This document shows positions 6,813 through 9,800 of a stretch of 64,000 bases of DNA, piece by piece; position 1 is the stretch's first letter; the number at the start of each line of letters is the position of its first letter. The notes below the pieces were generated by a model that ran no database searches, was not told where the DNA came from, and saw only the letters and a program-made list of their open reading frames with translations. This DNA comes from Balanoglossus misakiensis (Eukaryota; Animalia; Hemichordata). Location of the stretch: NCBI GenBank assembly GCA_040954595.2, contig CM082581.2:5200699-5264698 (forward strand), written 5' to 3'. The translations under genes were made by a program, and so were the position numbers.

Positions 6813-9800
6813 TCACTTCACACCTTTATCAGCAAGCTGCTCCTTGACTCTCTTTAGGTAATCCGGATCTGGGTAACCAAACCTGTAATGAATATGAGAA
6901 ATCAAGAAAACGGATTATAATCTGTACTTGACTTAGATCTATAAAAACAATATATGGCAAACTGATATTGGATCAAATTATTATTCAAGTTTTAAGTTGA
7001 CTAAATTTTTTATATGAACATGCACTGGATGAATAGATGGACATCCTTGTACTATGTACTAGACATAGATTTAGTTTTCTGTAGGGAAAAATGAACACCC
7101 TGCAGCCATAATGGATTGTACTGTGAAACAATTCTATACTGCAGTATTGATAACAAAACTTACGGTCCACCAGAAAGAGCTGTCTTGTGATTGATTTCAT
7201 TCCATGTTACAGTATCTGTAACACCAGTTGTCATAGAAGTACCAATGGTGAAAGTCAGTCGACGATCAAAAGCAATCTTCAGGAGTCTTAACACTTCACG
7301 ACCTTCAGCATTGTCTGGTAGATAAGCAGTACGAGTTGTTCCATAGTAACGTTTGCCAGGATTTGGATGTTCTTTCTGCCAAGACAAACAGAAATAGCAC
7401 ATTATGGTAAAGAGCTATCATAAATTGTTAGTCAAACCTTAAATCACACAATTTGTTTTTGTATATAAAATATGAGAAAACATAATTTACCAGCTTTTTG
7501 ATAGGCTTTCTCCGGACATATGAACCAGACGAAGTTTTTGGTTGTCCATAATGTCAAGAGCCAGTTAAAAAGGTTTCATAGAGGGCAGCTCATGAACTTG
7601 ATGCTGAGAAAGTAACCATAAATTGCAGGTGTGGAAAGTTCTTTTTAGGCCAAAAAAGATTTAGTTCCACATGTCCATTTAATAACGGTACATCATGCTT
7701 GACTGCTTAAGATAGAACACATAAATTCTTACCCCTTGTATCCCTGAAGGGAAATTATAGTCAATCACAAAAGAACCACACTTTGGATATCCTGCAAGAT
7801 GAAATCTCTCCACTCTCTCTCTCATTGTTCCTTCAGGCATATTACCAGTGATGCGTCCAAATGCTTGTTTACAAACTGGACAGGATGGTCCTCTTGTCTT
7901 CTCTGCTTTGTCGATACAGGCCTTGCAGAATTTGTGTTTACAGGGCAGTTCCTTGGAGTTCTGTATCTTATCCAGACATATGGGGCAATCCATATCTTGT
8001 GGATCATTGCCTCTTTCCACCAGATAAGATGTTCCACTGGTGCTTGCAGAATAAGATTTAGGAACAGCTCTCCGTGGACTGGTTTTGCTAGTGGGAGTGT
8101 TTCCACCAACACCACCACTGGTGCTTGCAGAATAAGATTTAGGAACAGCTCTCCGTGGACTGGTTTTGCTAGTGGGAGTGTTTCCACCAACAACACCAGA
8201 CCACAGACTTGTGGAGTCCTTTACTTGACCAGGAAACCCAGTAAATTCACCTGCACCCGCCGTGCCACCATAACTAGATGTTGCTCCTGTGGGATACTGA
8301 TTGCCATCAAAAGAGCCCTCTTTAAGCATAATACCGGTAATACAACCAAATGCCTGTTCACAAACTGGACAGGTTGGGCCTCTCATTTTCTCTGCTTTGT
8401 CGATACAGGCCTTGCAGAATTTGTGTTTACAGGGCAGTTCCTTGGAGTTCTGTATCTTATCCAGACATATGGGGCAATCCATATCTTGTGGACCATTGCC
8501 TCTTTCCACCAGATAGGATGTTCCACTGGTGCTTGCAGAATAAGATTTAGGAACAGCTCTCCGTGGACTGGTTTTGCTAGTGGGAGTGTTTCCACCAACA
8601 ACACCAGACCACATCCTTGTGGCAATATCCTTTACTTGAACATGAAACCCAGTAAATTCACCTGTGCCTGCAGCGCCACCAAAACCAGATGTTGCTCCTT
8701 TGGGATTCTGACTTCCATCCACTGGACTCTCTTTACCAACAAACAAAGTATCTGCTCCAACATCACTTGGTCTAGTGGACAGGATGCCATATCCACGAGG
8801 CCCATGTCTTTTTCCTTTTCCACCATGGCGGCTTGTTGGGACATCAACACCAAGGTAACTGCAAAATGTTTCCATGGCAACCTTGACATCTTCTGACTCA
8901 CCTAATACTCTGATTTTTTTATCCCCCGTTTCTTTTATCAGAACTTTGCTATATTTTCTATGTGTGTCTTTCAGAGCTTGAGAAATGGAAGATGAAATAG
9001 CCTTCATAGACAAATCCATGTCTTTCGATATCATCTTCGAATGTAGTTTTTGTACAGATGTAACAAATTCTTCATAGACAGCATCTAGTGATTGTTGTGT
9101 GCATTTGCTATTTCCCTTGCCCGGTTTAATGACCACATCCTCACCCCCACTCCATTCAAATTCTACACCATGTGTACTTTCCATCTTGTTCAACCAATCT
9201 CTGCACACATGGAATATGTAACCCAATATATCTAACCCTACAGTGGCCTTTTTGCTTAAGGTTTCATTTTCATCTGTAAATATGCCCTCATTGTCTAGCT
9301 CCAGATCTGTCTTCAGTGGTTGGTTTTTTTTGCTATCTATGCAAATTGCTGCTTCAACCAACTTAACAGCTTTATCCAATAACCTCTCATCCTCACTCAA
9401 TAGTATGTATTTTCTTATTGGTTCAACATACCATGCAACTTTACCTTTGTAGAAACCTAGTATTTCTTCAGCATCTTTAACTTGTTGTCGCTGAAGATTT
9501 GGTGCATTGGCAAAGTTGATAACAGCCCTGGTAATTACTTTCTTTACAATTTTCAATAACGTTTCTAAACTTCTCTTGGCTGCCTCTGCAGACCCTGGAT
9601 TACTATCCTCAGCTGGATGAATGTAAACAATTTCTCTTTCATGTTTAGGGAACCATTTAACATCTACCTTATGTTCATTCATTAGGTCATCAATCTCATC
9701 TTGATAGTATTTAAAAAAGTAAAACAAAGTATCATAACTTTCCTTGAATGACAAACATGTTTTCAATGCACCCGTGTCCTTCGCTGCCTGACATGTGTTC

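What the first reader, a model, noticed from the sequence alone, without database searches (positions are those of the whole stretch)
6813..8810. Gene B has coordinately lost its ADP-ribose chemistry: macrodomain deleted and DTC catalytic His and Glu substituted
Seen: genes C, D and E keep W-N-[DE]-I-H-H-K-T and [15 protein letters not shown]. Gene B reads EI-N-HKT (AAT, 7190-7192), F-GYPDP (6879-6881) and KE-Q-L (CAG, 6837-6839). It is also the only complete paralog without a macrodomain. Established (numbering recalled, to be confirmed by alignment): the first His of IHHKT and the Glu just before the final Leu of KEEL (DTX2 H582/E608, DTX3L H707/E733) are needed for ubiquitin transfer to ADP-ribose or nucleic acid. 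Inference: conservative H>N and E>Q changes together with macro loss in an otherwise intact 2001-aa frame suggest a purpose-shifted, ADP-ribose-blind ligase or a decoy/dominant-negative paralog rather than random decay.
Basis: partly seen in the sequence, partly recalled or inferred. Interest (0 to 1): 0.82.

Follow-up and report, generated by a model that had tools for sequence, protein, structure and literature searches.

The report
Deltex ligase missing its catalytic pair
One copy in a tandem cluster of ubiquitin-ligase genes, likely from an acorn worm, has swapped out both residues that human relatives need to attach ubiquitin to ADP-ribose, so it likely tags only protein lysines; similar swaps recur in other animals, and the link to its lost macrodomain is not shown.

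Summary
Gene B (2001-aa model, TRIM–KH–RING–RING–DTC) has Asn and Gln at the DTX3L H707/E733 (DTX2 H582/E608) positions and an in-frame deletion of about 207 codons that removes the macrodomain. A spliced contig carries both substitutions, the frame is open, and E608Q is a published activity-reducing mutant. B therefore likely cannot ubiquitylate ADP-ribose or nucleic-acid hydroxyls but likely keeps lysine ligase activity. 'Coordinated' and 'ADP-ribose-blind' are not supported. The rest of the ADP-ribose pocket is kept. A macrodomain is about as common with a broken dyad (5 of 32) as with an intact one (46 of 236). Sister gene D has a different large in-frame deletion. One DNA contig shows a B-type last exon with Glu, so Gln may be unfixed. 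His loss recurs about 19 times in my tree of 272 DTC domains, including the same Asn/Gln pair in cephalopods. Verdict: one of a recurrent class of natural pseudo-catalytic DELTEX ligases, which my paper searches did not find described. Function is untested.

The parts
14225..15325 (-). Gene B exon 1 (model): TRIM RING, two B-boxes, coiled coil
   Evidence: Pfam zf-C3HC4, zf-B_box x2, PML_CC weak; phase-0 GT donor; fusion to RING-DTC seen in annotated Ptychodera/Glandiceps/Branchiostoma proteins; join not checked with reads
12146..13998 (-). Gene B exons 2-5 (model): 13998-13852 and 13660-13517 (repeated low-complexity linkers), 12885-12739, 12400-12146
   Evidence: AG/GT ends, all phase 0, open frame; exon 5 is 71% identical to a gene E exon; exons 4 and 5 have no match in D
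7733..11662 (-). Gene B exon 6: low-complexity linkers, KH-like blocks, macro-deletion junction, two RINGs, start of DTC
   Evidence: 1310 codons open
8849..9769 (-). KH-like block kept in B and E, deleted in D
   Evidence: AlphaFold model pLDDT 82; first domain matches type I KH structures, best Z 9.8, rmsd 2.4, 72 aligned; the later domains were barely tested; D deletion
8792..8794 (-). Macrodomain deletion junction; corresponds to D 40366..38583 (1782 bp with the intron, about 207 codons)
   Evidence: Flank alignments, length; bridged by X2 contig 8584-8851 with 3 other letters and no gap
8354..8476 (-). Extra RING (RING1) from an internal duplication; linchpin position Glu
   Evidence: Pfam, self-BLAST, linchpin
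7865..7987 (-). RING2 next to the DTC; all C3HC4 ligands kept, linchpin Lys as in C, D, E
7164..7375 (-). Exon 7: DTC core with Arg535 (7333-7331), Ser567 (7237-7235) and Trp578 (7204-7202) equivalents kept
   Evidence: spliced on both sides in X3 contigs
7190..7192 (-). AAT (Asn1970) at the catalytic His position (DTX2 H582, DTX3L H707)
   Evidence: same base in X1, X2 and X3 contigs
6813..6882 (-). Exon 8: end of DTC and stop; Phe1980 at the His594/Tyr719 position
6837..6839 (-). CAG (Gln1994) at the catalytic Glu position (DTX2 E608, DTX3L E733); possibly not fixed
   Evidence: Gln in spliced X3 contig 17; Glu in a B-type X1 DNA contig
35307..45085 (-). Sister gene D: TRIM, macrodomain, RING, DTC with His/Glu; lacks the KH block and B's exons 4-5
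   Evidence: tree (B+D, SH-aLRT 96)

Best explanation
Gene B has Asn and Gln in place of the DTC catalytic His and Glu and lacks the macrodomain, and it likely works as a lysine-directed ubiquitin ligase that can no longer put ubiquitin on ADP-ribose or nucleic-acid hydroxyls. Shown: the substitutions, their alignment to H582/E608, the in-frame deletion, a spliced contig with both changes, intact RINGs and an otherwise conserved DTC pocket. From published human mutants: His and Glu activate the 3'-hydroxyl; changing them (E608Q included) impairs ester formation and spares lysine transfer. Inferred: B's RING2 and TRIM RING still load E2~Ub; the DTC is kept as a weaker ADP-ribose/nucleotide-binding or structural module; targets come through the KH block and the B-box/coiled coil. 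Inferred history: B and D came from one duplication and lost different modules by in-frame deletion; B lost His first and the freed Glu then changed to Gln. The macrodomain loss is a separate event that may have relaxed selection on the dyad but is not shown to be coupled to it.
For: Position: 3PG6 chain residues 126, 138 and 152 are H707, Y719 and E733 counted back from residue 740 (length); B has W+4 = Asn and F+14 = Gln. Biochemistry: PMC7615817 (E608Q marked effect), PMC11460948 (H707A abolishes and E733A impairs Ub-DNA), PMC10810221 (dyad not needed for lysine ubiquitylation), PMC13061329 (Glu mutants lose ADPr-Ub, gain auto-modification, still recruited), PMC7442474 (pocket residues; triple mutant still discharges to lysine). 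Transcript: X3 contig 17 skips the intron and lacks differences at 7192 and 6839; its 6 displayed coding differences from the window are all synonymous (at least one more difference in exon 7 was not displayed). Selection: TRIM branch 40 N/26 S, omega 0.40, p=0.0006 against 1; 0 of 500 neutral simulations keep the frame open at 0.05 substitutions per site. Pocket: 4 departures at 55 columns of 90% conservation or more. Order: the acid is lost in 10 of 31 His-less but 1 of 237 His-keeping domains; B-type exon with Glu in X1.
Against: No enzyme assay, and I found no His-to-Asn mutant in the passages read. On B's own branch RING-DTC omega is 0.64 (16 N/8 S), not distinguishable from 1 (p=0.34), and B's N/S ratio exceeds its sister's (pooled p=0.002), which fits relaxation as well as adaptation. 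The shared N-terminal part of exon 6 has omega 0.83 between B and D. His582 itself binds the ribose, so binding may be much weakened. The tree-aware test of His/Glu coupling is underpowered (6 supported pairs, median p 0.5). All read evidence is one sample record and one study, contigs only. One contig each in X1 and X2 shows a 1-base insertion at 8751 that could be a frameshifted allele.
Confidence: 0.6

Rival explanations
1. One reading: macrodomain and dyad were lost together under selection, giving an ADP-ribose-blind ligase or a decoy that poisons paralog complexes through the TRIM coiled coil.
For: All 6 His-less members of the 17-row hemichordate clade (3 separate His changes: Arg, Ser, Asn) lack a macrodomain. 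The His-less cephalopod and amphioxus proteins have non-canonical macrodomain motifs (motif importance recalled). B's branch is accelerated. B and D lost complementary modules.
Against: Macrodomain on 46 of 236 dyad-intact and 5 of 32 dyad-broken domains; independent pairs show no trend. 190 dyad-intact domains have no macrodomain. Non-canonical macro motifs are also frequent with an intact dyad. Pocket residues are kept. Gln may be unfixed. No evidence on paralog binding.
Confidence: 0.2
2. B is a duplicate under recently relaxed selection in a birth-and-death cluster; both dyad changes are single-base conservative drifts with no new role.
For: Each complete neighbour except E has its own lesion: D two deletions, C a frameshift at an A-run. 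RING-DTC omega on B not below 1. Possible Glu/Gln polymorphism and a possible 1-base insertion allele. Both changes are one-base steps.
Against: 2001-codon frame, both rearrangements in frame, spliced contigs, TRIM omega significantly below 1, synonymous-only displayed differences between two Asn/Gln copies, damage concentrated on the dyad. The cephalopod Asn/Gln pair is shared by Octopus and Argonauta, and the Arg variant by Ptychodera and Glandiceps, so such variants can persist.
Confidence: 0.15
3. B keeps some hydroxyl-ubiquitylating activity or has changed acceptor, with Asn/Gln holding the substrate and another residue or the E2 acting as base.
For: E733A impairs but does not abolish Ub-DNA; Asn and Gln keep size and hydrogen bonding; the same pair arose independently in cephalopods.
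Against: H707A abolishes the reaction; Asn cannot act as a general base (established chemistry); I saw no compensating His nearby: the second His of HHKT is present in all paralogs.
Confidence: 0.05

Closest known systems
Human DTX3L and DTX2 (DELTEX RING-DTC E3 ligases; PDB 3PG6, 6Y3J)
   Same: RING followed by DTC, E 1e-27 and 1e-24 for exon 7 alone; pocket Arg, Ser, Trp and aromatic kept; KH-like N-terminal modules as in DTX3L.
   Different: Catalytic His and Glu replaced by Asn and Gln; predicted N-terminal TRIM RING-B-box-coiled coil; a second RING before the DTC.
Engineered DTC mutants DTX2 E608Q/E608R and DTX3L H707A/E733A/E733R
   Same: Same positions; E-to-Q is the same change.
   Different: B is a natural double change with His to Asn; its activity is not measured.
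Invertebrate macrodomain-bearing DTX3L (bioRxiv 10.64898/2026.04.23.720386; P. flava P0010; genes C, D, E)
   Same: Same KH-(macro)-RING-DTC layout; macrodomain loss from DTX3L is already described for vertebrates.
   Different: Vertebrates lost the macrodomain and kept His/Glu; B lost both; the preprint calls H707/E733/Y719 strictly conserved.
Hemichordate and amphioxus TRIM56-like RBCC-RING-DTC proteins (P0002, P0004-6, P0009, P0011, P0012, P0014, P0016, P0103, P0141)
   Same: Nearest database relatives (up to 80% identity in exon 7); macrodomain-less; five have His replaced by Arg or Ser.
   Different: They are 600-740 aa without B's long KH region; none has Asn/Gln; I found no direct ortholog of B.
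Cephalopod DTX3L-like proteins P0049 (Octopus bimaculoides) and P0050 (Argonauta hians)
   Same: The same Asn/Gln pair.
   Different: Far from B in the tree, so independent; they keep a macrodomain, with non-canonical motifs.

Membership tests
DELTEX (RING-DTC) E3 ligase | C-terminal DTC domain | tested here: met
   Pfam PF18102 above cut-off for exon 7 (115 bits) and for the exon 6 part; PDB DTX3L/DTX2/DTX1 hits
DELTEX (RING-DTC) E3 ligase | RING with intact zinc ligands directly before the DTC | tested here: met
   RING2 7987-7865, C3HC4 complete, linchpin Lys
ADP-ribose/nucleic-acid hydroxyl-ubiquitylating DELTEX | Catalytic His (H582/H707) | tested here: not met
   Asn1970
ADP-ribose/nucleic-acid hydroxyl-ubiquitylating DELTEX | Catalytic Glu (E608/E733) | tested here: not met
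   Gln1994 in the window and in X3 contig 17; Glu in one B-type X1 contig
ADP-ribose/nucleic-acid hydroxyl-ubiquitylating DELTEX | Other ADP-ribose pocket residues (R535, S567, W578, aromatic at 594) | tested here: met
   R1923, S1955, W1966, F1980; roles from PMC7442474; the S568 position is Met, as in D and E
ADP-ribose/nucleic-acid hydroxyl-ubiquitylating DELTEX | Forms Ub-ADPr, Ub-NAD+ or Ub-ssDNA esters | not testable with these tools
   needs an enzyme assay
Macrodomain-bearing invertebrate DTX3L | Macrodomain before the RING | tested here: not met
   deleted in frame
DTX3L-like | KH-like domains in the N-terminal region | tested here: met
   first domain of the 8849-9769 block matches type I KH folds, Z 9.8, rmsd 2.4, 72 aligned; shared fold shows no function
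TRIM (RBCC) protein | RING, B-box and coiled coil at the N-terminus of the same polypeptide | tested here: inconclusive
   domains present in exon 1 and the model joins in frame; relatives are annotated as fusions; no read laid across these introns
Pseudogene | Disrupted frame or no transcript | tested here: not met
   open 2001-aa frame; spliced contigs

The most novel reading that the evidence does not exclude
[quoted passage not shown] B and D would be a young sister pair that split writer and reader roles by complementary deletions, and the Asn/Gln pair shared with cephalopods would be true convergence.
Probability: 0.3. Interest if true: 0.75.

Novelty: new variant of a known kind. Interest (0 to 1): 0.52.

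Why it matters
Papers call the DTC His/Glu pair strictly conserved, and what ADPr-ubiquitin esters are for, as against ordinary lysine ubiquitylation by the same enzymes, is open. Natural, expressed dyad-less paralogs beside active sisters (B against D, 84% identical over RING-DTC) are ready-made separation-of-function pairs that can be tested with existing in vitro assays. The recurrence across acorn worms, cephalopods, amphioxus, tunicates and fish suggests the DTC has a second, non-catalytic job. It matters less as a single-gene story: the change is not unique to B and the tie to macrodomain loss is not shown.

Tried and rejected
No whole genome is held for this window, so other copies and gene A's 3' end could not be searched. 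The look-up of sequencing runs listed no holder on record as RNA; X3 is read as a transcript assembly only because its contigs skip GT-AG introns. No contig of X1 or X2 laid over 6839 shows Gln, but holes prove nothing. A search with B's whole exon 6 returned 1 unrelated fish protein among 7994 candidates scored: no ortholog found, weak evidence. The ESM Atlas gave only sub-0.9 KH/RBM43 leads; a second Atlas query did not complete. A depth-sum solver meant to assign X1 contigs was underdetermined (no solution with 6 contigs, 341 with 7) and is not used; the gene D rows printed had a wrong offset and were redone. The D row had a wrong last exon and was redone. RING1/RING2 divergence (dS 0.23) was rejected as an age for B because the differences cluster at one end, as in a mosaic. 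Assembly error was rejected for Asn (X1, X2, X3), Gln (X3) and the macro junction (X2). The Phe before GYPDP was rejected as a signal. A model of a natural Asn/Gln DTC and a Foldseek search were not run because the machine was busy. No complex prediction was made. Earlier-findings look-ups returned nothing. Paper searches for natural dyad-less DTCs or TRIM-DTC fusions found none: 'DTC domain'+'pseudoenzyme' 0 papers, 'DTX3L'+'macrodomain'+'octopus' 0, 'Deltex C-terminal'+'TRIM'+'B-box' 0, DTX3L absent from the 20 listed hemichordate papers, and searches listed nothing on the point. Subscription papers and the bioRxiv preprint's supplements were not seen.

Full report
**Setting.** The window is eukaryotic and holds, on the minus strand, a tandem array of DTX3L-like genes. 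Gene E has an RRM/NID-like start; D, C, B and A each follow a TRIM RING-B-box-coiled-coil exon; A runs off the window. The nearest database proteins are TRIM56-like RING-DTC fusions of Ptychodera flava and Glandiceps talaboti, and B-E fall in a 17-row clade with them (SH-aLRT 99), so the source is likely an acorn worm. No genome is held.

An 8-exon model of B with GT-AG introns gives 2001 aa. It has Asn1970 (AAT, 7192-7190), Phe1980 and Gln1994 (CAG, 6839-6837), where C, D and E have His, Tyr and Glu. In PDB 3PG6 the matching residues are chain positions 126, 138 and 152, that is H707, Y719 and E733 when the chain end is residue 740 (length). The spacings W+4 and F+14 match DTX2 W578/H582 and H594/E608. 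The macrodomain is removed by a clean genomic deletion: B 8794/8792 joins sequence matching D 40366 and 38583, 1782 bp with the intron, about 207 codons, frame kept. B also has a duplicated RING.

**Not an assembly artefact, and spliced.** Three runs were listed, all of one sample record and study, none on record as RNA. X3 contigs skip both DTC introns at GT-AG ends, so I read X3 as a transcript assembly. Its contig 17 shows no difference at 7192 or 6839; the His and Glu depth there (10.5 of 19.5) equals the other two contigs, 3.9 and 6.57. Asn also stands in X1 record 4 and X2 record 10. X2 record 12 bridges the deletion junction. One X1 DNA contig (depth 44.6, laid at 93% or more) lists 7 differences in the last exon, six synonymous and one giving Glu. 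It is not D (11 differences there, matching X1 record 2), E (19) or C (32), and it shares five synonymous letters with contig 17. So either B is polymorphic for Glu/Gln or a B-like copy with Glu lies elsewhere; contigs cannot tell which.

**What the residues do (papers).** PMC7615817 (passages; supplement search): His582 and Glu608 form a triad-like line with the ADP-ribose 3'-hydroxyl, and all tested changes impair Ub-NAD+, E608Q markedly. PMC11460948 (section 8): H707A abolishes and E733A impairs Ub-DNA. PMC10810221 (passages): the pair is needed for ADPr but not lysine ubiquitylation. PMC13061329 (passages): E608R/E733R lose ADPr-Ub, show more auto-modification, and E608R is still recruited to damage. 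PMC7442474 (passages): W578 and H594 stack the adenine, R535, S567 and S568 bind the diphosphate, H582 the ribose; a triple pocket mutant still discharges to lysine. B keeps the R535, S567 and W578 equivalents and an aromatic at 594. So loss of hydroxyl transfer is a sound inference; blindness to ADP-ribose is not.

**Selection.** Pairwise omega for B-D is 0.27 (RING), 0.42 (DTC) and 0.34 (TRIM). By parsimony B's branch has 16 N/8 S in RING-DTC (omega 0.64; D 0.17) and 40 N/26 S in TRIM (0.40; D 0.08). TRIM is below 1 (p=0.0006), RING-DTC is not (p=0.34), and B exceeds D when pooled (p=0.002). Under neutral substitution 0 of 500 simulated frames stay open at 0.05 per site, 30% at 0.005, so B was constrained over most of its branch; recent relaxation is not excluded. 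At 55 DTC columns conserved in 90% or more of dyad-intact domains B departs at 4: the dyad, one Pro also changed in D and E, and one Ile to Phe. Gene conversion in the cluster blurs these counts.

**How common is dyad loss?** I pooled 300 proteins: 64 of 64, the best 120 of 3766 and the best 150 of 3022. The profile held Asn/Gln and Pro/Gln rows and top lists favour multi-DTC proteins, so frequencies are inflated. Of 396 domains, 371 had both positions and 365 passed a length filter; the 6 dropped include a lamprey Gln/Gln domain. A divergent clade of 93 tandem-DTC domains (support 66, with named diatom proteins) has only 6 intact dyads and was set apart. Of the other 268 database domains, 231 have His+Glu, 15 lost His only, 16 lost both (6 of them Glu to Asp) and 6 changed Glu only (5 to Asp). 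Parsimony gives 19 changes at His and 8 losses of the acid on the 272-row tree. The acid is gone in 10 of 31 His-less and 1 of 237 His-keeping domains; this counts kin, and the independent-pairs test is too weak (6 supported pairs, same direction 2.3, opposite 0, p 0.5). His-less domains keep Trp578 and Ser567 in 31 of 31 and Arg535 in 28 of 31. Octopus bimaculoides, Argonauta hians and one unnamed protein have the same Asn/Gln pair and lie far from B.

**Is macrodomain loss coupled?** With my own macrodomain profile (7 seeds; fragments count as lacking it), 46 of 236 domains with His plus acid and 5 of 32 without sit on macrodomain proteins: no association. Vertebrate DTX3L lost the macrodomain and kept the dyad (bioRxiv 10.64898/2026.04.23.720386, section 5 and passages; supplements not seen). 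Sister gene D lost B's KH block (about 1026 nt, in frame) and two exons while keeping macrodomain and dyad, so module loss is routine here. Non-canonical motifs are also frequent with an intact dyad, so a one-way dependence is possible but not shown.

**Mechanism.** Most likely (0.6) B is a lysine-directed ligase with a non-catalytic DTC. It has three RINGs (linchpin Lys, Glu, Lys) and a KH block whose first domain folds as type I KH. His went first and Glu followed. Rivals are the coordinated blind or decoy model (0.2), relaxed decay (0.15) and residual or altered chemistry (0.05). An immune role is borrowed from DTX3L and TRIM biology and was not tested.

**Novelty.** B is a DELTEX by architecture but fails the catalytic test for the ADPr-ubiquitylating kind: a new variant of a known kind. 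My searches (review PMC13658767 seen as passages) found no account of natural dyad-less DTCs or of TRIM-DTC fusions, though such proteins sit in public annotations. Interest 0.52: a clear, testable exception to a 'strictly conserved' pair, more interesting as a recurrent class than as one gene, with function unmeasured.

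Noticed in passing
window 25150-25165 (gene C): Frame shifts at an 11-A run just before the macrodomain; either an assembly slip or a null allele of C.
   Followed up: no
window 40441-40443 and 42725-43068 (gene D): D lacks about 1026 nt of KH block (in frame) and B's exons 4-5, the latter beside a microsatellite: deletions complementary to B's.
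   Followed up: partly
window 8751: One contig each in X1 and X2 has a 1-base insertion here; it may be a frameshifted B allele or another copy.
   Followed up: no
window 8803: Loose ends in X1 and X2 continue into a macro-type linker that differs from D, pointing to a further macrodomain-bearing copy or haplotype with B-like upstream sequence.
   Followed up: no
window 1853-3157, 14123-15397, 28182-29750, 43943-45157: Four TRIM exons alternate with the DTX bodies; TRIM-KH-macro-RING-DTC in one protein (C, D) was not among the relatives I retrieved, which have TRIM or macro but not both.
   Followed up: partly
window 7831-8792: B's internal duplication gives two RINGs with an identical core and a divergent, partly D-like tail: a mosaic from unequal crossover or conversion.
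   Followed up: partly
window 3-1370 (gene A): A's first body exon resembles the linker of P. flava P0009, a His-to-Arg DTC protein (by eye only); A's DTC is outside the window.
   Followed up: no
P0071, P0095, P0099 and about 45 similar proteins: A diatom-type group with two or three DTCs per protein has the His/Glu pair intact in only 6 of 93 domains, often Pro for His in one DTC and Ser/Ala for Glu in the other.
   Followed up: partly
P0065-P0069 (fish multi-RING-DTC proteins): Tandem DTCs in one chain mix intact and His-less domains (Gln, Asn, Phe).
   Followed up: no
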